A DNA stretch of 64,000 bases, from IMG/VR virus record IMGVR_UViG_3300024518_002836, positions 4,076 through 68,075 of that record; one strand, written 5' to 3'. Under the pieces are notes generated by a model. That model saw nothing but the letters and a program-made list of their open reading frames with translations, ran no database searches and was not told the origin of the DNA. The DNA is from a virus. Both the position numbers and the translations under genes were made by a program. Below, piece after piece: positions 16,243-40,215 of this stretch (positions within the stretch are counted from its first letter, which is position 1; each line of letters begins with the position of its first letter).

Positions 16243-16487
16243 ATTGTTCCGCCCCCTAATTTAGTAACAAGAGTATTAATCTCATCCCAACTCATCTTAG
16301 CAATAGTGTTAGAATCAGGAACAACTCCATCTACCGCAACCATTTGTGGTGTTGGGCTATCAACCTTTACAAAACCAGATTTCATTAAAATGTTTTCGCT
16401 ATTATACACAGTATCTTCTAGTTTTTGGATTTTATCCACTAATAATTTCAGCACTTCTAGCGTTTCGTCCTTTGTTTCTTCGCTCAT
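16239..16487 (-). CDS. Small protein sharing the scaffold C-terminal motif (IAKMxWxEI)
   Basis: PDSNTIAKMSWDEINTLV versus scaffold PSYDEIAKMDWNEIHLAM. Confidence 0.6.
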   Translation of the reverse strand: MSEETKDETLEVLKLLVDKIQKLEDTVYNSENILMKSGFVKVDSPTPQMVAVDGVVPDSNTIAKMSWDEINTLVTKLGGGTI

Positions 16488-16816
16488 TTCTTTCTCAACC
16501 CCTTACTCTTAGGATAAATAATCTCACGAAGTTCTCTATACATTTCTTCGTAAGATTTACGTAATTTGGCAGCCAAAGCAACAACATCTACATTTTGCTC
16601 AGAAATACTTTTAACTTTCTTTTGCATTTTTTTGTCAGCTTTAACTAAATCTAATTTTCTCATAAGGTCAATTAATTCACCCATTCTAGTGAAATCTTGA
16701 CCAAAATATTCTGAAGGTTCTGCTGCTGATAAAACCTTTTTAAGTTTCTTTTTTTCTTTAACAGACAGACTAGCCAATGCTGGGCTGTCCTCTTTAATTA
16801 CATCAAACCATGTCAT
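16484..16816 (-). CDS. MxWxxILK-tagged hypothetical protein
   Basis: N-terminus MTWFDVIK. Confidence 0.6.
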   Translation of the reverse strand: MTWFDVIKEDSPALASLSVKEKKKLKKVLSAAEPSEYFGQDFTRMGELIDLMRKLDLVKADKKMQKKVKSISEQNVDVVALAAKLRKSYEEMYRELREIIYPKSKGLRKK

Positions 16817-17118
16817 GCTAAATCACCCAATCTATTTTCATAAAATTCTATAACATCATCAACGTCTGTAAATTTTACAAAGCGTTCTTCGTCTTTAAAA
16901 CCACTTACCCAATATTCTTGTTTAATTGCTAAGAATTTTATTACGCTATATTCTTCATTTTTATGAACACTAATACTAAATGAATCAGGAAGACCTTGAA
17001 GTAAAGGTTTAACATATTCAACAGATGCAGTAAATCCTAATTTTTTTAATGCATCTACAATAAAATTAGCAGTTACCCTTACTGAATTCTCATTCTTTAA
17101 TACACTTTCCCAACTCAT
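16813..17118 (-). CDS. MxWxxILK-tagged hypothetical protein
   Basis: N-terminus MSWESVLK. Confidence 0.6.
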   Translation of the reverse strand: MSWESVLKNENSVRVTANFIVDALKKLGFTASVEYVKPLLQGLPDSFSISVHKNEEYSVIKFLAIKQEYWVSGFKDEERFVKFTDVDDVIEFYENRLGDLA

Positions 17119-19952
17119 TCTTCTTCTTCCCTCCTTTTTCTATCTCTTTCTTTTGATGCTGCATGGTGTCGTTCCGTATCTCTTATTCTATTTTTAGGAG
17201 CAACCCATTTCGGGTCTTTAGATTGAACCTCTATTTCTTTTTCTTTTTCTGGTTCCTGTTCATCTATATGCTTTTCTTTATCTTGTCTTTCTTCTTCTGC
17301 TAAACGCTCAACCTTATCTTCATAAGATTCTGGAATATATTTATCTCCTTCTTTTTCTTTACGCTCTTCTTCTTCTTGCAGATGACTGAATTCACCCATA
17401 AGGTTTGCATTCCCTGCTTCCAATAATTGTTCAATATTCACAGCATCATCATCAACAAATTCATGGTCATCTCCTTCTATATATTCAATCACATTTCCAG
17501 CAACATCAACAATTTGTTCATCTAAATGTAATCCCTGACCAATATATTCTTCGTCCGGAAGGTAGTCTCGATAATCAACTTTCTCATCTTTAGCATAAGA
17601 AACAGCACCCATTTGCTCAACTCTTCTATCAAATAAATGCGGAAAATCTTCTACATTTGGGTGTTGTCCAGATGCTAAAGCTCTAATTAATCTAGTTCTA
17701 TTAGAATCAATCTTTTGTTGAGTTAATATCGTTCTAAACTTCTTCCTTTTCTGACGCTCCTTATCCATAAAAAGATTATATTCAGGTAACATTATATTAA
17801 CAAGCCTTTTTAAGTCGTCTTCATCATATTTCTTTCCAGCCTTAACAACTCGTACTAAAGACGTAATTCTTAAATCTAATTCCTCTTTCTTTTCTGTAGA
17901 AAAATTAGTCCTTCTTCTAGTTTTAGTAGTGGGTTTATAGAAAGGGTCCTCTTTTAATGCTAACTCTTGAAATCTTTTTAAATCTTTATTAGCAATTTTA
18001 TTAAAATTCTTTTCTATCTTTTTAGATAACTCGTTAATCATTTTAGTAAGTTCTTTTTTAATTGGTTCCCATGAAGGAATGTTTTCTTTTACTTCTCCCC
18101 ATACGCGCTTAATCGCTTCATAGTTTATTAATAATTCAATATACTCATCATCAGTTGGATTATCTTTATCCATATCTTTTATTGTATCAGAAATCGCATC
18201 TAATAATCTTCTAGCATCTTGTTCAGGTAAACTTTTATATTCATCACCTTCTAATTCTTCTTGCATAGTTAATGCGTCGTCATGAAAATCTAAAAGTGTT
18301 TCTAACATTAATTCTTGCTCATCTGTTAATTCTGGTTTCTCAACTTGTTTTTCACCAGTATCTAATTTTTTTCTAATCCTTTTAATAATATATCTAGCAC
18401 TAACCACTAAATCTGCATTTAAATCTCCTTCTTTTAATGCTTTAATAAAGATTTTTAATAATATATTGAGATTTTTCCTAAAAATAGTATGATGTTCCGG
18501 GCGGGTTTTCCCATCTTCTTCATATGAAATGCCAAAATCGCTTTTACCAGATACTGACTGTTCATCAAACATTTCTAATTGTTCTGAAGTAAGGTTTGAA
18601 AAAAAGGATTGTAATTTTTGTAATAATTCTATCCCATCATTATCACCGGGAACTCTTAATAAATAAGATAATTCTTCATCATACGCTTCCCAGTTTTTCA
18701 AATTTCCTGATTTACCTGTTCCTAGTCGACCAGATTTAGGCATATCTTTCATATAATTAGGGTGAGCATTTTTAACCTCTCTAACAAACTCTTTAAATTT
18801 AATAGTGTAATCATCAAGGAATGGTTTTAAATCCGCAGTTAAAGTGAATGCTTTAACATCATCAATAAACTTCTGCTTTCTAGCTTTTAATCTAATCATC
18901 TCTTCATAAGATACTGGAATATATTCTTTCCCTTCTTTTATTTCACGCTCTTCTTCTGCTTCCCTATGTTGTTTTCTTTCTTTTGTTTCTACGATTTCAG
19001 GTTTAGGTGTCTTCTCTTTCTCTTCTACTGGCCCACCTAATTCTTTTTTAGTTTTAGTTATCCTATCTTTAATTTGTTTGATTTGTATATCTAACTTATC
19101 ATTGATTCTAGCATTTTTATTATATCTAGCTCTTATATTCTTTACAAGACTTTCTATTGGTAAGATGTCTCCAACTTTCTTATGTTGTTCTCTTGCTTCT
19201 TTAATTTCACGTTCTAACTCTCTTGCATCAGCATTTAAATATAATGTTTCTAATTTATTTAACTTTCCTGTTAATATCTTAAGGCCTGTTTTTAACAAAC
19301 TATTTTTAATTTTAGGATTATTCCTTTCTTCATAACTATGCCCCATTAATTTAGTGTAATGGTTTTTTAATTCAACAAAATCTTCCTTAAAGAATTGTAA
19401 TTGTTCTTTCATATCATTGATTAATAAAGCGTGTTCTTTTTGTTCTTCTTTCCACCAAGAAGTAATCTGTTTTCTTTTTTCTTTTTTCTCAGAAGCAGAT
19501 AATTTTTTACCCTTACCTGCTCTTCTTTTTAAATTCGTAATATGTCTTAAAAGCCCCTTATCATCTGGCTCATCAGTAGCGATAATTTTTTGATTTATTA
19601 ACGATTCTAGTAAATCCTTTTTTTCCTCAGATTTAGGACCAAGTAATATTTTTAAGTTTTTAGTAGGAATATCTTCGGATTCTTCAATACGCGCTATCAT
19701 ATTTTTATAACCCTTAGCCTGTCTTGCAAACTGCTCTTTTCCCAATTCAATATCTTCTGGAATATCTTTAATCATAGATACTGTTTCTTTCATAGCCTCC
19801 TTCCAATATTCTCCACCTAATTCTTCTAAACCTTCTTCTCTAGCAGCCTCGACACCTTTTATTAATTCGCCCATAAACACTTTGGTTAAAGTATAAGGGT
19901 CGCGTTTACCAATTAGGTGGGCTTTGAGTAAGGTCATTAAAGAATTCACCAC
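17115..19952 (-). CDS. Large charged coiled-coil protein (945 aa), possible internal virion protein
   Basis: K/E-rich long ORF in the head module. Confidence 0.65.
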   Translation of the reverse strand: MVNSLMTLLKAHLIGKRDPYTLTKVFMGELIKGVEAAREEGLEELGGEYWKEAMKETVSMIKDIPEDIELGKEQFARQAKGYKNMIARIEESEDIPTKNLKILLGPKSEEKKDLLESLINQKIIATDEPDDKGLLRHITNLKRRAGKGKKLSASEKKEKRKQITSWWKEEQKEHALLINDMKEQLQFFKEDFVELKNHYTKLMGHSYEERNNPKIKNSLLKTGLKILTGKLNKLETLYLNADARELEREIKEAREQHKKVGDILPIESLVKNIRARYNKNARINDKLDIQIKQIKDRITKTKKELGGPVEEKEKTPKPEIVETKERKQHREAEEEREIKEGKEYIPVSYEEMIRLKARKQKFIDDVKAFTLTADLKPFLDDYTIKFKEFVREVKNAHPNYMKDMPKSGRLGTGKSGNLKNWEAYDEELSYLLRVPGDNDGIELLQKLQSFFSNLTSEQLEMFDEQSVSGKSDFGISYEEDGKTRPEHHTIFRKNLNILLKIFIKALKEGDLNADLVVSARYIIKRIRKKLDTGEKQVEKPELTDEQELMLETLLDFHDDALTMQEELEGDEYKSLPEQDARRLLDAISDTIKDMDKDNPTDDEYIELLINYEAIKRVWGEVKENIPSWEPIKKELTKMINELSKKIEKNFNKIANKDLKRFQELALKEDPFYKPTTKTRRRTNFSTEKKEELDLRITSLVRVVKAGKKYDEDDLKRLVNIMLPEYNLFMDKERQKRKKFRTILTQQKIDSNRTRLIRALASGQHPNVEDFPHLFDRRVEQMGAVSYAKDEKVDYRDYLPDEEYIGQGLHLDEQIVDVAGNVIEYIEGDDHEFVDDDAVNIEQLLEAGNANLMGEFSHLQEEEERKEKEGDKYIPESYEDKVERLAEEERQDKEKHIDEQEPEKEKEIEVQSKDPKWVAPKNRIRDTERHHAASKERDRKRREEEE

Positions 19953-20164
19953 TTATTTTCTGTCCTTTTTTGTTTCTTAGGAAGATGCACTACATAATCA
20001 ATATCATTTGAAGATGTTCTTTCATTATTATGATTTTTCTTATCTGGTAATTGCATAGGAGTAAGGTTTCTATCAATTGGTTTTTTCTGTTCTGCTAAAC
20101 TCAGCATCTTTTCAGTCTCTTGAAGTTCTCTTCTAATCTTTGCTACTTCTTTTCTATTTGTCAT
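19946..20164 (-). CDS. Hypothetical protein
   Basis: Coupled short ORF. Confidence 0.5.
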   Translation of the reverse strand: MTNRKEVAKIRRELQETEKMLSLAEQKKPIDRNLTPMQLPDKKNHNNERTSSNDIDYVVHLPKKQKRTENKW

Positions 20165-20607
20165 TATCTTACCTCCGGAATATTTTTCTTACGAATCATA
20201 CGTCTAATCTTACCAAGAAGGCGCTTTTGTTCTCTAGGTTCCTCTCTAGCCCTTGTTGCTAAAAGTGTAACCGCATCAGCCAACTCCCCATATTGCCCTC
20301 TAGATTCTCTCATAAGTCTAGCACGAACTTCTTTAATGTTTGCTCTAGTATCATCACCAGTAGAAACATCTTCGTCTATTGGTTCTCTTCTAGGTTCAGC
20401 AGTTTTACGAGAAGATGGAGAAATAGTTTTTCTACCAAATGTAGGCCTACCTTGCATTTCTTCCGGCATTCCTTTCGGATGCTCCGCAATTTTAGGACCA
20501 ACATCCAAAGTGGTTTGTCCGGGGTTTTTTCTAGCAATATTCGCTGCACGTCTAATTCGACGAGTCTGCTCTATTTTAGATTCTTTTAGTATTTTAAACC
20601 AAGTCAT
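20164..20607 (-). CDS. MxWxxILK-tagged Arg-rich protein
   Basis: MTWFKILK, very basic; GAGGTGA SD. Confidence 0.6.
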   Translation of the reverse strand: MTWFKILKESKIEQTRRIRRAANIARKNPGQTTLDVGPKIAEHPKGMPEEMQGRPTFGRKTISPSSRKTAEPRREPIDEDVSTGDDTRANIKEVRARLMRESRGQYGELADAVTLLATRAREEPREQKRLLGKIRRMIRKKNIPEVR

Positions 20608-25180: not shown

Positions 25181-25477
25181 TCAAGACCCATCCGTTTCTT
25201 CATTATATTCTTTATAATCAAACTCATCATTACTAATATGAACAGAAGGTTGTCGTAAATCTGTTTGGGTAATTCTACTAAGTTTAGCTAAATCCCAAGC
25301 ATCTAATAAAGGAAGAGAAAATCTCTCATTATCATTTTGATAAATACCAAATCCAGAATGTTCATTAATATCAACATATTCATATTTCTTACCATCCATA
25401 ACTATTAACCTTGGCCATTTATTACCATCACCATCTGTATGAGTTGCACCACGTTTTAAAATATCTTCCCATGTCAT
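25181..25477 (-). CDS. MxWxxILK-tagged hypothetical protein
   Basis: MTWEDILK. Confidence 0.6.
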   Translation of the reverse strand: MTWEDILKRGATHTDGDGNKWPRLIVMDGKKYEYVDINEHSGFGIYQNDNERFSLPLLDAWDLAKLSRITQTDLRQPSVHISNDEFDYKEYNEETDGS

Positions 25478-30983: not shown

Positions 30984-31186
30984 TGTAATCTCTCCTTATC
31001 TTTAATATTCATAGCGGGTTGTGTAACTTCTCCACCTTCTTTACTACATTTAGGACAAATATCAAATTCCATCCCTTCTTCATCATAAAATTTAGCCCAC
31101 TTATTCTTATCATATTCTTCAATTGAATATCTTTTACCACATTCTAAACAAGGGATTTTACCTTTGAGAACATTTTGCCAACTCAT
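30980..31186 (-). CDS. MxWxxILK-tagged Zn-ribbon protein
   Basis: MSWQNVLK; CLEC...CPKC. Confidence 0.6.
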   Translation of the reverse strand: MSWQNVLKGKIPCLECGKRYSIEEYDKNKWAKFYDEEGMEFDICPKCSKEGGEVTQPAMNIKDKERLQ

Positions 31187-31199
31187 TGTAATTCCTCCT

Positions 31200-31457
31200 T
31201 CATTCTTTTTCAAAGAAGTTTAAGTAGTCATCTATAAAGTAGCCATATCTATTATCTAATCTATCTTCAAACATATGTCTTGCATCATCTTCGCTCATTA
31301 AAAGAGAACCTTCTTTGGCGGGTGAAGTCAAAATATAACTCCCGTAGTGCGGTTCAATTTCATAATATGCTAAGTGTTTATACTCAGGGTGAAAGCCCTT
31401 AACATCTTTTACATCGTGGTCAAATTGTTCTTCTTTCAATATTTTTTTCCAACTCAT
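31200..31457 (-). CDS. MxWxxILK-tagged small protein
   Basis: MSWKKILK. Confidence 0.6.
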   Translation of the reverse strand: MSWKKILKEEQFDHDVKDVKGFHPEYKHLAYYEIEPHYGSYILTSPAKEGSLLMSEDDARHMFEDRLDNRYGYFIDDYLNFFEKE

Positions 31458-31672
31458 TGTAATTTCTCCTTCACACTTTCATAATCTAGGTCTTGGTCTG
31501 TTGCATCAATAGTTATGACCTGCCCTACTAATTTTTTAATGCTACCATTTAACACCAAAGCAACCATTTCTCCTGTATCGGCAATTGTTAGACTTCCTGA
31601 AATACCTTCTTTAGAAGAACCATCATCATACATTAAGACTAATTGTTTTTTCAATATACTTTGCCAACTCAT
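31454..31672 (-). CDS. MxWxxILK-tagged small protein
   Basis: MSWQSILK. Confidence 0.6.
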   Translation of the reverse strand: MSWQSILKKQLVLMYDDGSSKEGISGSLTIADTGEMVALVLNGSIKKLVGQVITIDATDQDLDYESVKEKLQ

Positions 31673-31911
31673 TGTAATCTCTCCAATGCTTTTATTGCTT
31701 TAGGCAAACCAATATCTGTTTTTGGGTCATAATTAGCAGAAGCCATAACGACTTCCAAATCATCAATTAAATTAGGAATATTATCTCTTGTGATATTTTC
31801 ACCCCTACCAATATAATTTTCCAATCCATCTTCATCATCCCCGTACCAAAGCCTCAATGCTTCTCTAACTTTAATATTTAAATCATCTTTTAATATATTT
31901 TTCCAACTCAT
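31669..31911 (-). CDS. MxWxxILK-tagged small protein
   Basis: MSWKNILK. Confidence 0.6.
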   Translation of the reverse strand: MSWKNILKDDLNIKVREALRLWYGDDEDGLENYIGRGENITRDNIPNLIDDLEVVMASANYDPKTDIGLPKAIKALERLQ

Positions 31912-32210
31912 TGTAATCTCTCCTGCATTCTTTTTCGTTCTTCTTCGGAATACACATAGTTTCCTTCTTTATCTTTTTTGAAAGGGTTGGGCTTTTCTAA
32001 ACCTTCTAGTGTTTCAAAATTGCCTTGAAAATCAAATCGAGGTCGTTCTTTAAGATAATTAGAAATCGCTTCATATTTTTCTTTTCGTGTTAAAGTTATA
32101 TAATCATCAAATTTATTTAAGGGTATTTTGTGTTTAACTTCTTTCCCTTTACTATCTCTATAAGATACAGTAATTACCTTAGATTTTTTTAGAATATCTT
32201 GCCAACTCAT
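31908..32210 (-). CDS. MxWxxILK-tagged small protein
   Basis: MSWQDILK. Confidence 0.6.
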   Translation of the reverse strand: MSWQDILKKSKVITVSYRDSKGKEVKHKIPLNKFDDYITLTRKEKYEAISNYLKERPRFDFQGNFETLEGLEKPNPFKKDKEGNYVYSEEERKRMQERLQ

Positions 32211-32212
32211 TC

Positions 32213-32563
32213 TTAATCCACCACCCAATCATATCTATTAGTTTTAGGATTCCATATTGGTGTAATACTCGGTTTATTTTCTTCTCCTGTTCTCGATTCC
32301 CAAAATCTTTTAGCATCTTCTGTTTGATTCGATGATTCATTTTTGACCGGCACTCCGGTTACTTTTTCAGCATAATTATAAATCTTAGTTCCAATTCCTT
32401 GTCGAGTAGATTTTGTCTTTATTCTAAAAGGAACTAATTTATCCTCAAATACAAAGAAAGAACCTTCACTATCTTCTCCGGCTTTGACTTCAATCACTTT
32501 TAAACCACTTTCTTCTGTAAATGTATGAGTCAATTCTAATTTTAATATTTGCATCCAACTCAT
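32213..32563 (-). CDS. MxWxxILK-tagged GNAT-like acetyltransferase
   Basis: MSWMQILK; acetyl-CoA motif RQGIGTKIY and NQTEDAKRFWE. Confidence 0.6.
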   Translation of the reverse strand: MSWMQILKLELTHTFTEESGLKVIEVKAGEDSEGSFFVFEDKLVPFRIKTKSTRQGIGTKIYNYAEKVTGVPVKNESSNQTEDAKRFWESRTGEENKPSITPIWNPKTNRYDWVVD

Positions 32564-32732
32564 TGTAATTCTTCCTGCATTTTATGTAGCCCATTCCACA
32601 AATCTTGTGTAATTTCATCCATTGTAATATCCAATGTGATTTCTCCCCATCTATACAAATCCCAAATGAATAATGAGATAATCAATAAACAACCTATTAA
32701 GAAACCAAGAAGAAAGTAAAGTATCATTGTAA

Positions 32733-32948
32733 TCATCCCTCATTAAGTTCTTTTTCTAGATTTTCTATCATTTTAATAAGTTTTTTTGTTTCCAAAGAAC
32801 GCATTTGTGGGTCAATAGATGATTGTCTGAGTAATTTTTCCTTTAGACCTCTAATTCTAGCCTCAAGTTTTCTTCTCTTATCTGCTTTTTTTCTAGATTC
32901 TTCTTTCCAATCATGTTCATCTATTTTTAATAAAGAAAACCAACTCAT
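32733..32948 (-). CDS. MxWxxILK-tagged small basic protein
   Basis: MSWFSLLK. Confidence 0.55.
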   Translation of the reverse strand: MSWFSLLKIDEHDWKEESRKKADKRRKLEARIRGLKEKLLRQSSIDPQMRSLETKKLIKMIENLEKELNEG

Positions 32949-33622
32949 TGCAATTTCCTCTCCATTTCATTTCTAACTTCTAACCAAACATTTGGATGCT
33001 GTTGTGCAAGAACTTCTTTAACAATCTGCATTTGAGCAATGATAATAGTATCTTGTCTCTTATGCACTAACTTACCTTTGAACTCCATAAGATACTTTAA
33101 ACTCTCACGAACTTCTCTAGCCAACTTAGTCAATGAATCAATTTCTCGGAAATCTAAATTCTCCTTTTGGAAAACTTCATCCAATTTAACGTCTAATTTT
33201 TGAATATTTTTAGACAGTAATTCAATTTCATCTAACTCCTTTTTAGCAAGAATAGCCGAAGCGGATTTTTGAACTAACGGCTGTAAATGGGATTGCATAT
33301 GTAATCGAACTTGTTGAACAGTAGTTTGTAATGTCGCGGCTAATGCACTAGGTTTTAATGAACCCTCAGACAAACCAGTTTCAAACATTTCCCTTCCACT
33401 ACTAATGCACAATTTGCACTTAGGATTAGATTTATCATCATATTCTCCAACATGATTTCTCATATGTCTAGAAGCAGTTCCAGAGGGCCAATCCATTTTC
33501 TGGTCTAAATCATCAGGCATAACGGAAATAGCATTGATATTATCTTCGTATTCAACCCGTTCATCATGTTGGCAAAACTTACAATGCTTTCTAGTTTTTC
33601 TACTCATTAAATTCAACTCCAT
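32945..33622 (-). CDS. Tandem Zn-HTH plus coiled-coil protein, candidate terminase small subunit
   Basis: Two CxxC...HxxxH units (CKFC/RHMRNH, CKLC/LHMQSH), then a helical oligomerisation-like region. Confidence 0.5.
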   Translation of the reverse strand: MELNLMSRKTRKHCKFCQHDERVEYEDNINAISVMPDDLDQKMDWPSGTASRHMRNHVGEYDDKSNPKCKLCISSGREMFETGLSEGSLKPSALAATLQTTVQQVRLHMQSHLQPLVQKSASAILAKKELDEIELLSKNIQKLDVKLDEVFQKENLDFREIDSLTKLAREVRESLKYLMEFKGKLVHKRQDTIIIAQMQIVKEVLAQQHPNVWLEVRNEMERKLQ

Positions 33623-34881
33623 AAGTAACTATGCCAAGAACCTTTAATTGCGCTCTTTTGTATAGCCCAACCCGGCAAATTATCTTTATTAGCCTTACGT
33701 TCTCTTTCAAACAATACCTTTCTACTTTCCTCTTCTCTAGCAGGGTCGTGTAAGAAAACACCTTTAAGTTTACCATGAACAACATCATTCAAGAACTTCT
33801 CACCTCTATTATTAAGAATGGTTCTAACTAACCTAAGAGAAATTTTATCTACAAAGAACGATTTAATTTCAACCAACGGTTTACCTTTATCATTCTCAAG
33901 ATTATCCTTTTTCCTATAATGAATAATAAAAGCAGAATCCTTTTTATCTATCACGTTAATCTTTTTTGTTTGTAAAGCCCGCATTACGGCTGCGAAATTA
34001 ATATGAAGACGCTTAAAAGGAACATTACCAGTTGGGTCTCTATAAGACTTTTGGTCAGATAACACCTCATCTAAAGCCGCTATAAATGAAGGGGCCTTTT
34101 CTAATCCTTGTCTATCTACCTTACCTTTAATATGCCATTTATTAATAGAACCTATATTGCCCTCGTCTACAATTTTAATAAAAGATTTTAACAAGGGTAA
34201 TAACCCCGCATTAATCCCAGGAATGTCTTGAATCTTTCCTTCAGGAGCAAACAATGCTTGCCAAAATGGAGGCTGGGCATCATTTTCTTCACTTGAATAC
34301 CAATGAGGTTCAGCAGCAGGAAGGCTCTCCTGTTTACCAGTAGCCTTTCTATGCTTAATATAGTTAGGTGTTCGATAATGCCCATAAACCTTTTCCCAAG
34401 ATTCAGCACCATCTTTACCAACAGTAGCAGGAACAGTAAATATAATGTTTCTAGGGTTTAATTTAGTAGTATTCTTCACTCTTTCTAAACCCTTTACATA
34501 AAGTTCAATATCTTTCAATTCATCCTTATCCACTAACTCTTCATCTCCAACTATTTTAACTAATTCTTCAACCATCTGATAAACACCTTTCCCGTAATTC
34601 TTTACTCCAGAACGTTTAACTTCCGCTCTAACGTGCTTATCAATAAAATCGAATAAATTGGTTGCTCCCTTTTGACCAGTAGTTCCAACATCTGTTTTAG
34701 ACACAGATTTACACTTAGTAACCCAATTACTTAAAGACTCAATAACATTTTTAAATGCTGGAGAATATTCAATTTCACCTGTATCACCATCTCCTAAATC
34801 AACTCTCTTAGGCCCCTTCTTCTTTTCTTCTTTTTTAGGGGCCTTATAAATAGGCGCTTTAAGGATAGTTTGCCAAGTCAT
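33613..34881 (-). CDS. MxWxxILK-tagged protein (422 aa)
   Basis: MTWQTILK. Confidence 0.65.
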   Translation of the reverse strand: MTWQTILKAPIYKAPKKEEKKKGPKRVDLGDGDTGEIEYSPAFKNVIESLSNWVTKCKSVSKTDVGTTGQKGATNLFDFIDKHVRAEVKRSGVKNYGKGVYQMVEELVKIVGDEELVDKDELKDIELYVKGLERVKNTTKLNPRNIIFTVPATVGKDGAESWEKVYGHYRTPNYIKHRKATGKQESLPAAEPHWYSSEENDAQPPFWQALFAPEGKIQDIPGINAGLLPLLKSFIKIVDEGNIGSINKWHIKGKVDRQGLEKAPSFIAALDEVLSDQKSYRDPTGNVPFKRLHINFAAVMRALQTKKINVIDKKDSAFIIHYRKKDNLENDKGKPLVEIKSFFVDKISLRLVRTILNNRGEKFLNDVVHGKLKGVFLHDPAREEESRKVLFERERKANKDNLPGWAIQKSAIKGSWHSYLWS

Positions 34882-35489
34882 TAATTATTCCCCCTTTGTG
34901 AAATACCCCTTGTATTTACTTTATCTCTAGTGGTTAATCCATGTTGAATATAGTAATTATACAAATTATTAATATTCGGGAAAATATTATTCAGCCATTC
35001 TTGTAATCTCATTGAATCTAAACTGAAAATTAACTTATCCCATTCTTCTTCAGTATTTGCTTGCTCAAATTTTCCTTCAATTTTTCGTGCAAACGTGGCA
35101 AAAGGCATGGCTGCTGGATTATTGGGCTGACCACCTTCGCGCATAGCCCTCATCATTTGAATAACTTCAAATCTATGGAAACCCTTATGAATTATCCAAT
35201 CTATTGCCTTTTGCCAATTTGGGGGCTTAGACCATATTTCTATAGGTCCCTCTTCAGGTTCTTCTAACTCCTTTTTGCGTTTTTCCCACTCTTCTCTAGA
35301 TTCATACGAGCGTCTAGGAATTTCTGCTTTTAATACATTTTCCCAACTCATTGTAATCGCTTCCTTCTTAACAGATTCAACTTGCTCAACAGTTTCTAAA
35401 GCATCAACCATTGGTTCATCAGTATCGCCATCACCGTCAAGGTCTGGGTAATCAGGCCGTTGGCCTTTAATTGTATTTTCCCAACTCAT
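34881..35489 (-). CDS. Double-tagged protein (fusion of two cassettes) with DxDxDGD Ca-binding-like motif
   Basis: MSWENTIK...PDLDGDGDTDEPM...internal MSWENVLK. Confidence 0.6.
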   Translation of the reverse strand: MSWENTIKGQRPDYPDLDGDGDTDEPMVDALETVEQVESVKKEAITMSWENVLKAEIPRRSYESREEWEKRKKELEEPEEGPIEIWSKPPNWQKAIDWIIHKGFHRFEVIQMMRAMREGGQPNNPAAMPFATFARKIEGKFEQANTEEEWDKLIFSLDSMRLQEWLNNIFPNINNLYNYYIQHGLTTRDKVNTRGISQRGNN

Positions 35490-35732: not shown

Positions 35733-36719
35733 TCATTCTTCCTCCTCATTTTTCTGACCTATGATTCTATTTAACGAAGCCGTAACTTCTGCATCAGCAC
35801 CAATAACCCTATTACCTAATCCTTGGTCTTCAGCCCAACGTCTAATAATTTCTAATTCTTTAACCCCAATATTTCCACCTTCAGAATCGCCCCTATAAGA
35901 ATTAGGAATGGGAAAATCATCTTTCATCATCCAGCGTCTGACTACTGTTGGAGTAACTCTAAACCATTCGGAAAGAGGACCTATTCCATAAGAGGACTGA
36001 TATGCAGGCTTTGGTTGAACATGAACCCCTTTAATTCTATCTCTCCAAGTTGTATGTTGTTTACCTTTAGGTTGTCCTCTTACAGCCCTAGAAAGTCTCC
36101 TTTTAGATGGAGTCCTTCTACTAATTCTCTTTTCGGGGGCAAACCTAGATATTAAAGTTCTAAATCTACGAGTTAAATCTTCCTCGGTCATTCTTCTAGC
36201 TTTACGCGTATTTCTATCAATGGTGTGACCCGGATTTTCTCTTTCAAAAGACTCTTTAAGTTCTTCAAAGGTTTCACTTGGTTTACTGGTTTCAATTTCC
36301 TTTTCTTCAACATTAACTTTAAAAATCTCCTTAAATTTAACCCGTGTTAAATTCAATAACTCATCTAAACTATCAGCATATCTAATTTCTTGTAGTGATG
36401 CTGCTGCTGCTGTTGCGGCTTGATAACCAACTAATTGAATATTATTACCCTCCAGTACCCGATATAGTAAACTAGCTTTAAGGGCAGTTTCAGGATTACC
36501 ATTAAAGGCCTGTCTAATAAAAGAAATGTATACTGATGGAATAGGTGTACTATTTGGTTTATCTACAACCCTAACTTGAGGTTTTCGACCAACACCTTCA
36601 GAACTAATTTGTTCTATTTCCTGTCTTAATCTAATTAAAAGTTCTGCTTTATCAACAATTAAAAACTGTTCATCTTCAGTTTTTATTTTTAATATGGTAA
36701 ACCAATTAATTCTATTCAT
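35733..36719 (-). CDS. Tagged hypothetical protein
   Basis: MNRINWFTILK. Confidence 0.6.
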   Translation of the reverse strand: MNRINWFTILKIKTEDEQFLIVDKAELLIRLRQEIEQISSEGVGRKPQVRVVDKPNSTPIPSVYISFIRQAFNGNPETALKASLLYRVLEGNNIQLVGYQAATAAAASLQEIRYADSLDELLNLTRVKFKEIFKVNVEEKEIETSKPSETFEELKESFERENPGHTIDRNTRKARRMTEEDLTRRFRTLISRFAPEKRISRRTPSKRRLSRAVRGQPKGKQHTTWRDRIKGVHVQPKPAYQSSYGIGPLSEWFRVTPTVVRRWMMKDDFPIPNSYRGDSEGGNIGVKELEIIRRWAEDQGLGNRVIGADAEVTASLNRIIGQKNEEEE

Positions 36720-37746
36720 GTTCATCACGCCATTGCCTTGCATCTTTTATATCTTGCTCCATTCTATGTATATTAGCCCTAGCGGGACTAACTCTCCTAG
36801 CAAGAGAAGTCCACCGATTAGCAATGTCAGGATCATACGTAGCTTTAGTATTAATTCTAAGTAAATCTTGACGGGCTTCCTGAATTATTGTCAGCCCTTG
36901 TGCATAATATGGCGCATCTAAACCTCTATACCACCATTCTTTCATATTTGGGGTTGCTTGCTGCGTTTGACCAAATGACCACCTACGACCCCTACCAGCA
37001 ATATACTCTTCAAATGCTTTTTTATCAGATAATGCCGACAGAATGATACCCACATAATAATCTCCAGAAACAATGTGAACACTCTCAGGACGAAAACAAA
37101 CTTCTTGAGCTTTTTTATCGTCAATCATATAATCAACACAAGTGTCGTAAGTCCGATGACTTAAATTAAATCGTATTCTTAAATTATTAATTAGTTTACC
37201 ACGATGACCAGATTCACCCGAAACATGGCGCGAAGGCAACCAATCCGGCCAAATTCTAATAGTTAACCCATGATGCGTTTCTTTAAATTTAAGTCGAGAA
37301 TCATTAGCAAAATCACTCAACACGTCTAAAATTAATTTTCTAGCACGTTCTCTAGGTAATTGTTGGGCTTGAGTTTTCCCTTTCCTAACTCTATCCATCA
37401 AGTTATCTAAGTTTTGTATTAAATTATTAAATATATTTCCTGCTATACTTATTTTTGCAGTAGATTCTCCTTTAACCCGTTCATGATAATTTTTCATATG
37501 TTCTAATCCCTTAGAAGGTAAAGTAGAACTATCCCTCAATTGTTCAGGGTCGCCTCTTGTATCATAACCTTTAGGCTTATCCGTTCTAATTGAACCAAAA
37601 GACCACCATTTTTTAAAACTATGTTTATGACTATCATCTAATAAATTCGATAGATATTTAATGTATTTACCAACTTCTGGAGTTTCATGAGCTTCAGGGT
37701 TTGGATATGGGTTTGGATTTACCTTTAAAATATTAAACCAATTCAT
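36712..37746 (-). CDS. Tagged hypothetical protein (344 aa)
   Basis: MNWFNILK. Confidence 0.65.
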   Translation of the reverse strand: MNWFNILKVNPNPYPNPEAHETPEVGKYIKYLSNLLDDSHKHSFKKWWSFGSIRTDKPKGYDTRGDPEQLRDSSTLPSKGLEHMKNYHERVKGESTAKISIAGNIFNNLIQNLDNLMDRVRKGKTQAQQLPRERARKLILDVLSDFANDSRLKFKETHHGLTIRIWPDWLPSRHVSGESGHRGKLINNLRIRFNLSHRTYDTCVDYMIDDKKAQEVCFRPESVHIVSGDYYVGIILSALSDKKAFEEYIAGRGRRWSFGQTQQATPNMKEWWYRGLDAPYYAQGLTIIQEARQDLLRINTKATYDPDIANRWTSLARRVSPARANIHRMEQDIKDARQWRDEHE

Positions 37747-37928
37747 TAAAATGACCCCCCTTCACACTCTTTCCATTCTTCTAAAATTTTACGTAATTTT
37801 TTAGTATGCGCATTAAAACTTGATTCTCTCGCTTTGAAAGTACTATTCTCATAAGCATTCATATCCGTAGATTCCCGAAATTTTATATCTTCTTTAAGAG
37901 CCTCTTTTAATACATCAAACCAACTCAT
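37746..37928 (-). CDS. Tagged small protein
   Basis: MSWFDVLK. Confidence 0.55.
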   Translation of the reverse strand: MSWFDVLKEALKEDIKFRESTDMNAYENSTFKARESSFNAHTKKLRKILEEWKECEGGSF

Positions 37929-38131
37929 AAGAAATCCCTCGGATATACTCTCCCCTCAGTAATAAACTCTTTGACAAATTCTATAACTCTTTGATTAATA
38001 TAAGTTTCTAACTCTTCTTTAGAACCTTTCCAACCCTCTTCTAATAAGGCACGTTTAATCTCTTCTTTTAATTTTAAAATCATCGATTTAATATCCTCTC
38101 TTGCTGATTTTAAAACTAATTGCCAAGACAT
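37925..38131 (-). CDS. Tagged small protein
   Basis: MSWQLVLK. Confidence 0.55.
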   Translation of the reverse strand: MSWQLVLKSAREDIKSMILKLKEEIKRALLEEGWKGSKEELETYINQRVIEFVKEFITEGRVYPRDFL

Positions 38132-38132
38132 A

Positions 38133-38459
38133 TTATTCCTCTTCCTCTACACTATAATCTTCCATAATAGTATCAATATCTTCATCAAAATTTTCTACAA
38201 CCTGTACCCAATCAACATCGGATAGACCATCTGAAGGACTCATTTCTATTAATTCATCCATGAACCCATCAATATGAGCCATCTTTTCAGGAAGAATAGA
38301 AGCAAGAGCCTCTAAAATCTCTTCCTTAGTGTGTTTCTTTTTTACTAAGAATTTAATATCATCAAGAATACTCATATAAAATCCATAATCATTCATTGTC
38401 CATAAATCTGCTGACCGTGTTGCAGTAGCAGTATCTTTTAGTATATCTTGCCAAGCCAT
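38133..38459 (-). CDS. Tagged acidic protein
   Basis: MAWQDILK. Confidence 0.6.
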   Translation of the reverse strand: MAWQDILKDTATATRSADLWTMNDYGFYMSILDDIKFLVKKKHTKEEILEALASILPEKMAHIDGFMDELIEMSPSDGLSDVDWVQVVENFDEDIDTIMEDYSVEEEE

Positions 38460-38460: not shown

Positions 38461-38751
38461 TTAATCCTTCCAATATTCTCTTCTTAATCTCCATAACTTT
38501 CTAGGACCTTTACTTTCTCTTATTGACGGGTCATTCATACTTTCAAACGATTCTCTATTTGTTCCGGGAGCAGTATTATGTTTAATAAACATAGCAATCC
38601 TTCTACTATTACTACCCACCAATTCAACTAGTTCAGCAACAGTCCTCCATTCACCATCACTCATAATATGCAATATTTTATTTCTTTCCTTATAGGTTAA
38701 CCTAGGAGTTTTACCCGCGCGTTGGCCCTTAATAAGAATTTCTTTCCACAT
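38461..38751 (-). CDS. Tagged winged-helix-like protein
   Basis: MWKEILIK; MSDGEWRTVAELVELVG is HTH-like. Confidence 0.55.
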   Translation of the reverse strand: MWKEILIKGQRAGKTPRLTYKERNKILHIMSDGEWRTVAELVELVGSNSRRIAMFIKHNTAPGTNRESFESMNDPSIRESKGPRKLWRLRREYWKD

Positions 38752-38755: not shown

Positions 38756-39076
38756 TCACTTAATTAATCTATAACTATTTGGATGGGAAAATCGTTTACC
38801 TCCAACAGTAGTTTGTTGTTTAATGGCCCGTCTTTGTTCATACTTTAATTCTTGAGAACGTCTAGGTTTTCTAGCATAATTCAAATACGGCCTAATATGA
38901 GCCTCATGAATTTTCTGTCCTGTTTTAAGATGTCTAAATTCAGATAAAGCTAATTCTTGAAAAATCTCATTAACGCTTCTCCATCTATAATCTAACATTA
39001 AATCATCAATTAAGTCTCTAGCCTTTTTGGGTATCCTATTTCTATATCTTCCTATTTTCAATACTTCTTCCCACAT
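38756..39076 (-). CDS. Tagged winged-helix-like protein (paralogue of neighbour)
   Basis: MWEEVLK; MLDYRWRSVNEI resembles the neighbour's MSDGEWRTVAEL. Confidence 0.55.
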   Translation of the reverse strand: MWEEVLKIGRYRNRIPKKARDLIDDLMLDYRWRSVNEIFQELALSEFRHLKTGQKIHEAHIRPYLNYARKPRRSQELKYEQRRAIKQQTTVGGKRFSHPNSYRLIK

Positions 39077-39081: not shown

Positions 39082-39366
39082 TCAAACCTTATGACTATCT
39101 GGATAACTTCTACCTGAATATTTACCCTTTCTAAAAACCCCCCATAATTCACCATATGAAGAATTAGCAAGACTGATTTGCCTAACCATTCCTCTAGCGA
39201 CTTCACCATGTTGAATATACCACTCATTCATCCTATCTCTAGTTTCTTTTGCTTCTTGACTAGTAGAATGCAATGAACGTAATATCCAACTTTTAGGGGG
39301 CTTTTGAACCCATAAATGGCGCTCTGGATGATTACGCTTAAATTTTAAAACCTCGGCCCAAGACAT
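39082..39366 (-). CDS. Tagged small protein
   Basis: MSWAEVLK. Confidence 0.55.
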   Translation of the reverse strand: MSWAEVLKFKRNHPERHLWVQKPPKSWILRSLHSTSQEAKETRDRMNEWYIQHGEVARGMVRQISLANSSYGELWGVFRKGKYSGRSYPDSHKV

Positions 39367-39642
39367 TTATTCCGCGCCCCAGTTATCAAATAACCTACTA
39401 AGTTCTCTCCGTTTTGCACGATAATCCTTTGTTTGCACATCTTTTAACCTCTGTAATGTTTGCATAGCGACATCGTTTTCCCATAGTCGGGGCATTGCGC
39501 GTAAACTATTAATTAAATTTTGGATTGCTGTATCTATTTCTACTTCAATAAGTGATTTTAAATCTTCCGGATTAGCATATCTTTTAGCATCACTAATTGC
39601 ATCTGATGTACTAATTTTTAATATATCATTCCAATTGTTCAT
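39367..39642 (-). CDS. Tagged small protein
   Basis: MNNWNDILK. Confidence 0.55.
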   Translation of the reverse strand: MNNWNDILKISTSDAISDAKRYANPEDLKSLIEVEIDTAIQNLINSLRAMPRLWENDVAMQTLQRLKDVQTKDYRAKRRELSRLFDNWGAE

Positions 39643-39652
39643 TTTAAAACAC

Positions 39653-39892
39653 CTATTCATCAATCTTTGTTCCACGATTACCAAATCCAAACTCTTCAGG
39701 TTTTAAATCTTCCCAATTTGCATTCAATTCATAAAGCATATCACTAGCACTATTAAGACTATGACCATGTTTTTCTAGTTCCTTTACTGCATTCTTTAAG
39801 TCTATGTATAAATTACGATAAACACTCATTAACTTTGCTCTACCTATCGGGGTTAAATCCTCATCTTTAATTATATTTTGCCAATTAGTCAT
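39653..39892 (-). CDS. Tagged small protein
   Basis: MTNWQNIIK. Confidence 0.55.
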   Translation of the reverse strand: MTNWQNIIKDEDLTPIGRAKLMSVYRNLYIDLKNAVKELEKHGHSLNSASDMLYELNANWEDLKPEEFGFGNRGTKIDE

Positions 39893-39911
39893 TTTAAACA
39901 CAATTCCTGAG

Positions 39912-40215
39912 ATTTTGGGCTGTAATTATTTTAACTCTTTCTCTAATTTCTCTTGAACCTTTTTTGCTTCTCTAAGAAAGTTCTCTATAATGGATATTGG
40001 ATTATTAATTCTTAAAATTCGCGGTTCTTCAGGTCTACCTTTTTCTAATTCCTCTAAAACATTTTCAATTGCACTTATAATATTAGGCATTCTTGATTTA
40101 ACTTTAAGCGAACTTACTTTATCATGTAAGAAATCATTTTCTGAATACTCTTTTTTGATTGAATCTTTCCAATTCATTAAAATCACCTTTATTTTTCAAA
40201 TTTTGGGCTGTAATT
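39912..40215. repeat. 16-bp direct repeat ATTTTGGGCTGTAATT upstream of two successive tagged genes
   Basis: Copies at 39912-39927 and 40200-40215; possible promoter or cassette element. Confidence 0.6.
39926..40177 (-). CDS. Tagged small protein (first gene of the leftward unit)
   Basis: MNWKDSIKK; AGGTGA SD. Confidence 0.55.
   Translation of the reverse strand: MNWKDSIKKEYSENDFLHDKVSSLKVKSRMPNIISAIENVLEELEKGRPEEPRILRINNPISIIENFLREAKKVQEKLEKELK

What the first reader, a model, noticed from the sequence alone, without database searches (positions are those of the whole stretch)
16484..40177. About 27 unrelated proteins share an N-terminal M-[S/T/N/A]-W-x-x-[I/V]-L-K tag: a candidate capsid-targeting cargo system
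Seen: 27 minus-strand ORFs of about 60-690 aa with otherwise unrelated sequences begin MSWKNILK, MTWEDILK, MNWFNILK, MAWQDILK, MSWAEVLK and similar. Most are in a near-continuous array at 28.4-40.2 kb co-oriented with the head genes, and the full tag was not seen on the plus-strand arm. The tag is conserved at protein level (codons vary), ends in the same ILK found at putative maturation sites, and resembles the scaffold tail (MDWNEI). Cargo includes GNAT, wHTH, Zn-ribbon and acidic/basic proteins. Known: T4 internal proteins use a short cleavable N-terminal capsid-targeting sequence. Inference: a modular address label for packaging a variable arsenal of effectors (anti-defence/host takeover) into the procapsid for injection, on an unusually large scale.
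Basis: partly seen in the sequence, partly recalled or inferred. Interest (0 to 1): 0.92.

Follow-up and report, generated by a model that had tools for sequence, protein, structure and literature searches.

The report
Shared address tag on archaeal-virus proteins
In this ocean archaeal virus and its many relatives, dozens of otherwise unrelated small proteins carry the same eight-residue end tag, which resembles a conserved motif in the tail of the capsid scaffold protein, so it is most likely a label that loads variable accessory proteins into the virus head.

Summary
On the minus strand, 20 ORFs start exactly M-x-W-x-x-[IVLM]-[LIVM]-[KR], and 7 more carry one-residue variants. A DNA form of the tag occurs 17 times against 0.06 expected by chance.

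The window matches the published description of a group B magrovirus, a tailed virus of marine Poseidoniales archaea. The tag is found across this virus group, with 360 tagged ORFs on the terminase strand and none on the other in 80 related loci. That gave 321 non-redundant tagged proteins in 160 loci.

- **Protein-level signal:** Leu7 uses all six codons, and the same core also sits 1-3 residues from the C-terminus of 43 other ORFs.
- **Variable set:** tagged genes turn over fast. Only 5 of 26 have a homologue in the closest complete relative, against 29 of 35 untagged genes. None has a membrane-like segment.
- **Strand:** tags never occur on the replication strand.
- **Scaffold link:** the first six tag residues (M-S-W-x-D-I) recur in the conserved C-terminal motifs of the protease-scaffold fusion and of a small head-module protein, p82.

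My best reading (about 0.5) is a terminal docking peptide that copies the scaffold's shell-binding motif and loads variable cargo into procapsids. This would work like the T4 capsid-targeting sequence or an encapsulin cargo peptide. Binding, cleavage and presence in virions are not shown.

The parts
16484..16816 (-). Tagged ORF, 110 aa, MTWFDVIK. Conserved head-module member.
   Evidence: 107 homologues in related loci
16813..17118 (-). Tagged ORF, 101 aa, MSWESVLK
20164..20607 (-). Tagged ORF, 147 aa, MTWFKILK. Basic protein, just downstream of the portal gene.
25181..25477 (-). Tagged ORF, 98 aa, MTWEDILK. Just upstream of the large terminase gene.
28433..30490 (-). Tagged ORF, 685 aa, MSWQILLK
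   Evidence: no Pfam family
30490..30750 (-). Variant-tagged ORF, 86 aa, MSWEDSIK
30756..30983 (-). Tagged ORF, 75 aa, MSWKNILK
30980..31186 (-). Tagged ORF, 68 aa, MSWQNVLK
31200..31457 (-). Tagged ORF, 85 aa, MSWKKILK
31454..31672 (-). Tagged ORF, 72 aa, MSWQSILK
31669..31911 (-). Tagged ORF, 80 aa, MSWKNILK
31908..32210 (-). Tagged ORF, 100 aa, MSWQDILK
32213..32563 (-). Tagged ORF, 116 aa, MSWMQILK
32733..32948 (-). Tagged ORF, 71 aa, MSWFSLLK
33613..34881 (-). Tagged ORF, 422 aa, MTWQTILK
   Evidence: no Pfam or PHROG family
34881..35489 (-). ORF of 202 aa with two tags: MSWENTIK at residue 1 and MSWENVLK at residue 47 (35328-35351)
35733..36719 (-). Variant-tagged ORF, 328 aa, MNRINWFTILK
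36712..37746 (-). Tagged ORF, 344 aa, MNWFNILK
37746..37928 (-). Tagged ORF, 60 aa, MSWFDVLK
37925..38131 (-). Tagged ORF, 68 aa, MSWQLVLK
38133..38459 (-). Tagged ORF, 108 aa, MAWQDILK. Very acidic (28 D+E).
38461..38751 (-). Variant-tagged ORF, 96 aa, MWKEILIK
38756..39076 (-). Variant-tagged ORF, 106 aa, MWEEVLK
39082..39366 (-). Tagged ORF, 94 aa, MSWAEVLK
39367..39642 (-). Variant-tagged ORF, 91 aa, MNNWNDILK
39653..39892 (-). Variant-tagged ORF, 79 aa, MTNWQNIIK
39926..40177 (-). Variant-tagged ORF, 83 aa, MNWKDSIK
11830..13149 (-). Prohead protease (S78) fused to a scaffold-like C-terminal half, 439 aa
   Evidence: Pfam Peptidase_S78 9.8e-9; PHROG head maturation protease 7.2e-17
11869..11886 (-). 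Tag-like motif MDWNEI, residues 422-427 of the protease-scaffold protein, 12 residues from its C-terminus
   Evidence: conserved as K-M-[SD]-W-x-[DE]-[IV]-[HN] in the relatives aligned; third-best internal PSSM hit
16239..16487 (-). p82, a conserved 82-aa head-module protein (candidate small scaffold)
   Evidence: 110 BLAST hits in related loci; alignment
16278..16295 (-). Tag-like motif MSWDEI, residues 65-70 of p82
   Evidence: conserved I-[AS]-K-M-[SDEN]-W-x-[DE]-I; second-best internal PSSM hit, 14.5 bits
10435..11799 (-). Major capsid protein (start MVKYINT); candidate receptor of the tag. A conserved L-L-K ends at residue 27 (11719-11730 = DILK).
   Evidence: Pfam SU10_MCP 4.1e-8; PHROG major head protein 2.2e-16; K27 invariant in 47 sequences
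25474..26007 (-). p177, whose relatives end in a C-terminal copy of the tag core. The window copy is degenerate (WWNVLGG, 25486-25506).

Best explanation
The tag is a short peptide at the end of a protein. Its consensus is a small polar residue, then W-x-[polar or acidic]-[IV]-[LI]-[KR], most likely forming a two-turn helix with one hydrophobic face. It is used at the N-terminus, and in relatives also at the extreme C-terminus, of variable soluble accessory proteins of magroviruses.

Its first six residues copy the conserved C-terminal motif of the protease-scaffold fusion and of the small head protein p82. I therefore infer that tagged proteins bind the same site inside the assembling procapsid. 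That site would be on the inner face of the major capsid protein, or on the portal or scaffold core. [quoted passage not shown]

Shown: the motif, its restriction to the structural strand, protein-level selection, use at either end of a protein, fast turnover of the tagged proteins, absence of membrane-like segments, and the shared scaffold motif.

Inferred: binding to the procapsid, packaging, release (possibly by S78 cleavage after K8), and any role against host defence.
For: 1. The tag is found across the virus group, on one strand only.
   - 360 tagged ORFs on the terminase strand and 0 on the other in 80 loci (1.43 Mb); 76 of 80 loci have at least one.
   - In whole genomes, tagged genes were 19 of 75, 17 of 71 and 9 of 61 on the structural strand, against 0 of 39, 0 of 71 and 0 of 73 on the other (Fisher p=3.8e-14).
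2. Selection acts on the protein.
   - Leu7 uses all six codons (TTA .32, TTG .20, CTT .14, CTC .05, CTA .23, CTG .07) and Ile6 uses three, in 403 unique tags.
   - Upstream DNA is conserved only as a ribosome-binding-like purine stretch.
3. The same core lies 1-3 residues from the stop codon in 43 ORFs on the terminase strand, with none at 6-14 residues. On the opposite strand there is 1 hit at that distance among 22.
4. A scoring matrix built from tag positions 1-6 of 321 non-redundant tags was scanned over 20,516 positions of this genome's proteins. After the second tag of ORF 34881-35489, the best internal hits are the C-terminal motifs of p82 (14.5 bits) and of the protease-scaffold (10.2 bits). 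Both motifs are conserved in relatives.
5. Tagged proteins are the variable set. 5 of 26, 1 of 26 and 3 of 26 have a homologue in three complete relatives, against 29, 24 and 22 of 35 untagged structural-strand genes.
6. None of 321 and none of 27 tagged proteins has a membrane-like hydrophobic segment, against 58 of 418 untagged ORFs.
7. The tag is added onto a known enzyme fold. A CCA-adding-enzyme homologue has its GGAVRD motif at residue 33, after MSWMDILK.
8. The tag is not a feature of host genomes. The commonest DNA form has 36 scattered single hits in 596 Gb of prokaryote genomes, none in Poseidoniales.
9. Precedent exists. T-even internal proteins are diverse defence proteins sharing only a capsid-targeting sequence (PMC3012670, PMC7411985; passages). 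Encapsulin cargo peptides of about 10 aa at either end bind pockets inside HK97-fold shells (PMC8229669; passages).
Against: - There is no direct evidence that any tagged protein is in a virion or binds a head protein.
- The scaffold and p82 motifs share only six of the eight tag positions. They have [HN]-x where the tag has L-K, and score only 2.4 bits or less with the full eight-position matrix.
- The load is large: 27 proteins and 3,975 aa in this genome.
- Some tagged proteins in relatives are ordinary-looking enzymes (4 PAP2-like phosphatases and 1 CCA-adding enzyme among 150 scanned), with no obvious need to be packaged.
- The main array lies at the promoter-proximal end of the leftward arm, a position often held by early genes.
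- Ser2 is AGT in 213 of 227 cases, and A follows the ATG in 26 of 30 tagged against 40 of 125 untagged ORFs. Part of the N-terminal pattern therefore reflects ATGA stop-start overlaps.
- The nearest cultured relatives lack the tag: halovirus HGTV-1 has 0 pattern matches, and none was seen in the HVTV-1 structural region. No virion proteome of a related virus can be used as a check.
Confidence: 0.5

Rival explanations
1. The tag docks on a hub protein other than the procapsid. This could be a viral or host factor such as the chaperonin, the transcription or translation machinery, or a protease. Its role would be to stabilise, fold, localise or time the destruction of accessory proteins in the cytoplasm.
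For: Short terminal peptides with one hydrophobic face are typical docking motifs. Tagged proteins include enzymes that would work in the cytoplasm (CCA-adding enzyme, PAP2-like). The virus encodes a Cpn60 chaperonin and a ThiF-like protein. The array sits where early genes often sit.
Against: The same six-residue core sits in the conserved tails of the protease-scaffold and p82, which are procapsid proteins. Tags are absent from every gene on the replication strand. Only 12 of 26 published magroviruses encode a chaperonin (PMC5434244 passage), whereas 76 of 80 loci have tags. The commonest DNA form is at chance level in prokaryote genomes, so host proteins do not appear to use this tag.
Confidence: 0.22
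2. The tag is only a propeptide. It would be a recognition and cleavage site ending in I-L-K for the S78 prohead protease or another protease, removed to activate the proteins, with no targeting role.
For: K or R at position 8 in 403 of 403 unique tags (386 K, 17 R). Conserved [IL]-L-K sites occur in the capsid protein (K27 invariant) and at the end of the protease domain (FDILK). From memory, not checked here, the HK97 protease cuts its capsid protein after a lysine.
Against: C-terminal copies leave only 1-3 residues after K/R, so cutting there would achieve little. The invariant W and the match to the scaffold tail, which lacks L-K, are not explained. The protease N-terminal ILK is continuous with the conserved start of the protease domain.
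Confidence: 0.1
3. The shared ends are leftovers of common descent or of cassette shuffling. The array would be a fast-diverging family of paralogues, or genes swapped by recombination at conserved 5' junctions, and the peptide itself would have little function.
For: Tandem arrays of small overlapping ORFs. Eight junctions in the window share the 15-mer ATTACAATGAGTTGG, which also occurs 37 times in 160 loci. The tagged genes turn over quickly.
Against: No similarity between the tagged proteins beyond the tag (best E=0.13). Tags sit on unrelated known folds and at C-termini. Synonymous codons vary freely at positions 6-8 while the residues stay fixed. Upstream DNA is not conserved beyond the ribosome-binding-like stretch.
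Confidence: 0.08
4. The signal acts on RNA or DNA. The first 24 nt would serve translation initiation or coupling, and the peptide would be a by-product.
For: Ser2 is AGT in 213 of 227 cases, against .28 AGT elsewhere in the same ORFs. A follows the ATG in 26 of 30 tagged against 40 of 125 untagged ORFs. Many tagged genes overlap the upstream stop codon as ATGA (coordinates).
Against: Six Leu codons and three Ile codons are used at the conserved positions. The core recurs at C-termini and inside the scaffold and p82, where no translation starts.
Confidence: 0.04

Closest known systems
Capsid targeting sequence (CTS) of T4 and T-even internal proteins (IPI, IPII, IPIII, Alt)
   Same: A short N-terminal peptide is the only shared element of otherwise diverse, fast-evolving proteins. 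It is encoded near the head genes of a tailed virus that has a scaffold core and a prohead protease. In T4 it directs encapsidation and the proteins are injected (PMC3012670, PMC7411985; passages read).
   Different: The virus infects archaea. The protease family is different (S78, not T4 gp21). There are about 27 tagged proteins per genome, against four named in the passage read. The tag also works at C-termini and copies the scaffold tail. Cleavage and packaging are not shown here. I did not compare the sequences with the T4 CTS.
Encapsulin cargo-loading (targeting) peptides
   Same: A consensus peptide of about 10 aa at the C-terminal (rarely N-terminal) end of unrelated cargo proteins binds a conserved pocket on the inner face of an HK97-fold shell. 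The consensus can be used to find new cargo (PMC8229669; passages read).
   Different: The shell here belongs to a genome-packaging virus with terminase, portal, protease and tail. There are dozens of cargo proteins rather than one to a few. Binding to the shell is not shown.
Capsid-binding C-terminal tails shared by scaffold and protease (lambda C/Nu3; HK97 protease tail). Recalled: Duda et al. 2013 was seen only as a reference title and is not held.
   Same: The protease-scaffold fusion and a second small head protein share one conserved C-terminal motif. That is expected if the motif brings both into the procapsid.
   Different: Here the same motif core is also spread over many non-structural accessory proteins.
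N-terminal propeptides of ejection proteins in giant phages (SPN3US, phiKZ-like)
   Same: Head proteins with N-terminal propeptides are proposed to target them into the prohead, and the prohead protease removes them (PMC7411985; passages).
   Different: Those propeptides are long (for example 111 residues), and the passages read describe no 8-residue consensus shared between them.

Membership tests
Group B magroviruses (tailed viruses of Marine Group II / Poseidoniales archaea) | Halovirus-like head module; ATP-dependent DNA ligase and an endonuclease inside the structural module; chaperonin; ribonucleotide reductase; tRNA-Leu and tRNA-Arg (PMC5434244 passages) | tested here: met
   TerL, portal, S78 protease and capsid protein found. 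A ligase domain lies in the 852-aa head-module protein (3.2e-30). An endonuclease-like ORF lies between TerL and portal. Cpn60, RNR and a TFIIB-like protein are on the plus arm. tRNA-Leu, -Met and -Arg are present. The protease is closest to haloviruses HVTV-1 and HCTV. The contig is 68 kb and its relatives are 88-99 kb. No tree was built.
T4-type capsid targeting sequence | Short terminal peptide as the only shared element of diverse proteins | tested here: met
T4-type capsid targeting sequence | Tagged proteins are present in proheads and virions and are injected | not testable with these tools
   The virus is uncultured. No paper holds both 'magrovirus' and 'metaproteom'.
T4-type capsid targeting sequence | The tag is removed by the prohead protease at a defined site | not testable with these tools
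   Only indirect: K/R at position 8 and conserved [IL]-L-K in the capsid protein and protease. C-terminal copies argue against cleavage being essential.
Encapsulin cargo-loading peptide | Consensus terminal peptide on unrelated cargo, usable at either end | tested here: met
   N-terminal tags and C-terminal tags
Encapsulin cargo-loading peptide | The peptide binds a pocket on the inner face of the HK97-fold shell protein | tested here: inconclusive
   No usable structural result was obtained. The capsid protein model was too poor to use (pLDDT 48.5). See Tried and rejected for the complex job.
Encapsulin cargo-loading peptide | The shell is a cellular nanocompartment with no genome-packaging machinery | tested here: not met
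   Terminase, portal, protease and tail genes are present. It works like an encapsulin system but is not a member.
Scaffold/protease shared capsid-binding tail | Protease and scaffold-like proteins share a conserved C-terminal motif | tested here: met
   K-M-[SD]-W-x-[DE]-[IV] in the protease-scaffold and in p82 across relatives

The most novel reading that the evidence does not exclude
Magroviruses, among the most abundant archaeal viruses of the surface ocean, run a cargo-loading system like that of encapsulins. An 8-residue label, usable at either end of a protein and copied from the scaffold's shell-binding tail, would load dozens of fast-changing soluble effector proteins per genome into the capsid, to be delivered with the DNA. 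More than 300 distinct tagged proteins are already visible in 160 loci. This would be the largest tag-defined set of injected proteins known for any virus. It would also give a sequence rule for finding archaeal-virus host-takeover and anti-defence proteins, and a ready-made tag for packaging foreign proteins.
Probability: 0.4. Interest if true: 0.9.

Novelty: new variant of a known kind. Interest (0 to 1): 0.8.

Why it matters
Most magrovirus genes have no known relatives (PMC5434244 passage). A single 8-residue rule now sets apart a large, fast-changing class of their accessory proteins and links it to head assembly.

If the tag is a packaging label, four things follow:
- It gives a way to list the injected protein set of uncultured ocean archaeal viruses from sequence alone.
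- It shows that scaffold mimicry is a route by which cargo-loading peptides can arise in HK97-fold shells, which bears on how viruses and encapsulins are related.
- It extends the T4 internal-protein principle to archaeal viruses, on a much larger scale.
- It offers a compact tag for loading proteins into capsids.

I found no mention of the motif in the main texts of three magrovirus papers. No paper in the library holds both 'archaeal virus' and 'capsid targeting'.

Tried and rejected
1. Complex prediction of the capsid protein (alignment A2) with tagged protein 31911-32210. The verdict was 'no answer' (score 0.00; the controls were not folded). This counts neither for nor against binding.
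2. AlphaFold2 of p177 with 11 sequences. Mean pLDDT was 37.4, which is unusable, so whether p177 is a small terminase or a GNAT stays open.
3. AlphaFold2 of the capsid protein with 47 sequences. Mean pLDDT was 48.5. I ran no fold search because a model this poor gives meaningless matches.
4. ESM Atlas searches for the 685-aa and 422-aa tagged proteins. There was no usable hit by features, and the structure rows were all at TM 0.25 or lower.
5. Pfam on 20 of the 27 tagged proteins. Nothing reached a cut-off; the two weak hits were Bac_chlorC at 0.0013 and DUF6098 at 0.0047. Seven tagged proteins were not scanned: those starting at 30983, 31186, 31672, 31911, 32948, 37928 and 38131. PHROGs on 5 tagged and 5 neighbouring proteins gave 0 families.
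6. PCNA-type docking was considered because such motifs also sit at protein ends. I rejected it because no replication-strand gene carries the tag.
7. A secretion or membrane signal was rejected: none of 321 tagged proteins has a hydrophobic segment.
8. The protease N-terminal 'F-x-I-L-K-S' as a maturation site was judged unlikely. It runs straight into the conserved start of the protease domain.
9. Looking for the tag in cultured relatives with known virions found none: HGTV-1 had 0 pattern matches and the HVTV-1 structural region had none.
10. The first literature search returned nothing relevant. Duda et al. 2013 is not held.
12. I did not use the sequencing-run tools, the large protein-database searches or the RNA-model tools.

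Full report
**What the window is.** The window is 64 kb of a single 68,075-bp viral contig. The minus-strand arm (about 40.2 kb down to 1) encodes these proteins:
- a large terminase (23741-25177);
- an endonuclease-like ORF;
- a portal (20612-22246);
- an 852-aa protein with an ATP-dependent DNA ligase domain;
- an S78 prohead protease fused to a scaffold-like C-terminal half (11830-13149);
- a major capsid protein (true start MVKYINT at 11799);
- tail genes.

The plus-strand arm encodes a ribonucleotide reductase, a TFIIB-like factor, a ThiF-like protein and a Cpn60 chaperonin. There are tRNA-Leu, -Met and -Arg genes and a fourth, 174-nt tRNA match. This set matches the published description of group B magroviruses, tailed viruses assigned to Marine Group II (Poseidoniales) archaea (PMC5434244, passages read). 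The terminase has 240 confirmed relatives in IMG/VR on contigs up to about 100 kb. The protease is closest to the haloarchaeal viruses HVTV-1 and HCTV.

**The observation.**
- A six-frame scan finds 28 minus-strand matches to the loose tag. Of these, 20 start with ATG and open ORFs of 60-685 aa. The 4 plus-strand matches are not at start codons.
- Seven further minus-strand ORFs have one-residue variants.
- The DNA form ATGNNNTGGNNNNNNRTNYTNAAR occurs 17 times, all on the minus strand, against 0.06 expected from shuffles.
- With the first 12 residues removed, the 27 proteins share no BLASTP similarity; the best pair has E=0.13.
- 23 of the 27 form a nearly unbroken array at 28.4-40.2 kb. The other four sit inside the head module: two beside p82, one after the portal gene and one just before the terminase gene.

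**The tag belongs to the whole virus group.**
- In 80 loci around terminase relatives (1.43 Mb), the strict tag opens 360 ORFs on the terminase strand and none on the other strand. 76 of the 80 loci have at least one.
- In 160 loci there are 498 tagged ORFs, which reduce to 321 non-redundant proteins.
- Five near-complete relatives of 88-99 kb have 13, 9, 11, 6 and 7 strict DNA matches on the terminase strand and 0, 0, 0, 0 and 1 on the other. The reversed-pattern control gave 0 in all five.
- In gene calls for three whole genomes, tagged genes (N- or C-terminal) are 19 of 75, 17 of 71 and 9 of 61 on the structural strand. They are 0 of 39, 0 of 71 and 0 of 73 on the replication strand (Fisher p=3.8e-14).
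- Arrays of up to 16 tags in 14 kb occur elsewhere.
In 596 Gb of prokaryote genomes it has only 36 scattered single hits, none in Poseidoniales. The tag is therefore a viral feature, not a host one.
- The haloviruses HGTV-1 (0 matches) and HVTV-1 (structural region) lack it.

**Protein level or nucleic-acid level.**
- In 403 unique tags, W3 is invariant. Position 6 is I or V in 377. Position 7 is L or I in 360. Position 8 is K in 386 and R in 17.
- Leu7 is written with all six codons and Ile6 with three, at frequencies close to those elsewhere in the same ORFs. Selection therefore acts on the peptide.
- Position 2 is different. Ser is AGT in 213 of 227 cases, against 28% elsewhere in the same ORFs. 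An A follows the ATG in 26 of 30 tagged ORFs against 40 of 125 untagged ones. This reflects the frequent ATGA stop-start overlaps in these arrays.
- Upstream DNA shows only a purine-rich ribosome-binding-like stretch. Eight junctions in the window do share the 15-mer ATTACAATGAGTTGG.

**A new point: the tag also works at C-termini.** On the terminase strand of the loci, the core W-x-x-[IVLM]-[LIVM]-[KR] lies 1, 2 or 3 residues before the stop codon in 12, 12 and 19 ORFs. Two more lie at 5 residues and none at 6-14. On the opposite strand there is 1 hit at that distance among 22.
- These ORFs fall into several unrelated families of about 180, 215, 365-380 and 450 aa.
- One is the family of the gene just upstream of the terminase. 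The window's copy, p177, ends in a degenerate WWNVLGG.
- The residue before W is again small and polar (S, D, G or N), and here no start-codon constraint applies.
- A motif used at either extreme end of unrelated proteins is a peptide signal. It also makes K/R look like a binding residue rather than an obligatory cleavage site.

**Link to head assembly.**
- The protease-scaffold protein ends ...IAKMDWNEIHLAMSRLERNFR. The 82-aa head-module protein p82 ends ...IAKMSWDEINTLVTKLGGGTI.
- In the relatives aligned, these motifs are conserved as K-M-[SD]-W-x-[DE]-[IV]-[HN] and I-[AS]-K-M-[SDEN]-W-x-[DE]-I, while the flanking sequence varies.
- I built a scoring matrix from positions 1-6 of the 321 non-redundant tags of relatives and scanned it over 20,516 positions of this genome's proteins. 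It ranks three non-N-terminal hits highest: the second tag inside ORF 34881-35489, then the p82 motif (14.5 bits), then the scaffold motif (10.2 bits).
- With all eight positions these two score low (2.4 bits or less), because they have [HN]-x where the tag has L-K. The likeness is real but partial.
- A shared C-terminal tail on protease and scaffold is the classical way both are brought into a procapsid. I recall this for lambda C/Nu3 and the HK97 protease; Duda et al. 2013 was seen only as a reference title and is not held.

**Nature of the tagged proteins.**
- They are the variable part of the genome. Only 5 of 26, 1 of 26 and 3 of 26 have a tblastn homologue (E<=1e-5) in the complete relatives G001 (terminase about 90% identical), G002 and G003. 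For untagged structural-strand genes the figures are 29, 24 and 22 of 35. One tagged ORF, 20164-20607, was lost from this gene call.
- None of the 321 or the 27 has a membrane-like hydrophobic segment, against 58 of 418 untagged ORFs in four genomes. The one clear membrane ORF inside the window's array, 32560-32736, is untagged.
- Function is almost entirely unknown. None of the 20 window proteins scanned reached a Pfam cut-off.
- Among the 150 longest tagged proteins of relatives, Pfam found only 4 PAP2-like members, 1 CCA-adding or poly(A) polymerase-like member, 1 HAD_SAK_1 member and a few single weak hits.
- In the CCA-adding-like protein, the tag precedes the nucleotidyltransferase motif as an N-terminal addition.

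**Interpretation.** The best-supported mechanism is a terminal docking peptide that copies the scaffold tail and recruits soluble, fast-changing accessory proteins into the assembling procapsid.
- The documented analogues are the T4 capsid-targeting sequence and encapsulin cargo-loading peptides. [quoted passage not shown] Encapsulin peptides bind pockets inside HK97-fold shells (PMC8229669).
- Which head protein receives the tag, whether the tag is cut after K8, and whether the cargo is injected are all inferred.
- Conserved [IL]-L-K sites exist in the capsid protein (K27 invariant in 47 sequences) and at the end of the protease domain. Nothing shows that they are cleaved.
- Points against are set out in the Against line. 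They are the partial motif match, the size of the load, the presence of ordinary-looking enzymes among the tagged proteins, the early-gene-like position of the array, and the lack of any virion data.
- I put this reading at about 0.5, a non-capsid hub at about 0.22, and a processing-only propeptide at about 0.1. A remnant of descent or cassette shuffling is at about 0.08, and an RNA- or DNA-level signal at about 0.04.

**Novelty.**
- I found no mention of the motif in the main texts of PMC5434244, PMC11706807 or PMC10160649 (term searches). No paper in the library holds both 'archaeal virus' and 'capsid targeting'.
- The principle is known, so I rate this a new variant of a known kind. What is new is the archaeal-virus setting, the scale, the use at either end of a protein, and the visible origin in the scaffold tail.

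Noticed in passing
window 48049-48222 (+): Rfam finds a fourth tRNA match spanning 174 nt (55.3 bits) that ARAGORN did not report. The length suggests a tRNA gene with an intron, as is common in archaea. It lies next to tRNA-Leu, tRNA-Met and tRNA-Arg at 48467-49492.
   Followed up: no
window about 40200-48900: The region between the two divergent arms has few ORFs and a higher G+C content (0.37-0.43 against about 0.33). It holds only a few ORFs of 145-217 aa on either strand and one short tandem repeat (47116-47154, period 14). Its function is unknown; it could hold the origin, promoters or non-coding RNA.
   Followed up: partly
window 34881-35489 (-): One ORF carries two tags in frame: MSWENTIK at residue 1 and MSWENVLK at residue 47. 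This could be two fused small genes or an alternative start.
   Followed up: no
window 30983-32563 and 35351 (-): Eight gene junctions share the exact 15-mer ATTACAATGAGTTGG, which covers the spacer after the ribosome-binding-like stretch, the start codon and the S-W codons. It also occurs 37 times in 160 related loci. These short direct repeats could promote gain and loss of gene cassettes.
   Followed up: partly
window 32560-32736 (-): A 58-aa ORF with a clear hydrophobic segment sits inside the tagged array but has no tag, whereas none of the 321 tagged proteins has such a segment.
   Followed up: yes
window 13186-15744 (-): An 852-aa protein with an ATP-dependent DNA ligase domain (residues 252-436) lies inside the head module between p162 and the protease. 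This is a known oddity of group A and B magroviruses (PMC5434244). Whether it is itself packaged is unknown.
   Followed up: no
window 50761-52017 (+): This is the only plus-arm near-match to the tag: a 418-aa protein with GRWDKILK at residues 15-22, not at the start. It scores low (1.3 bits) with the 8-position matrix.
   Followed up: partly
window 17115-19952 and 15754-16242 (-): Two untagged head-module proteins start with tag-like ends that lack the W: p945 with MVNSLMTLLK and p162 with MNIDAILK. p945 is very rich in charged residues and poorly conserved (28% identity to G001).
   Followed up: no
L193 (IMG/VR contig of 184,733 bp): A contig about twice the usual magrovirus length carries a terminase relative and 8 tagged ORFs in 12 kb. 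It may be a concatemer assembly or a larger relative.
   Followed up: no
G001 (closest complete relative), about 38.9-45.8 kb: Six strict tag matches lie downstream of the capsid gene, among the tail genes. The window has no tagged ORFs there, so tagged genes can be inserted at several places along the structural arm.
   Followed up: no
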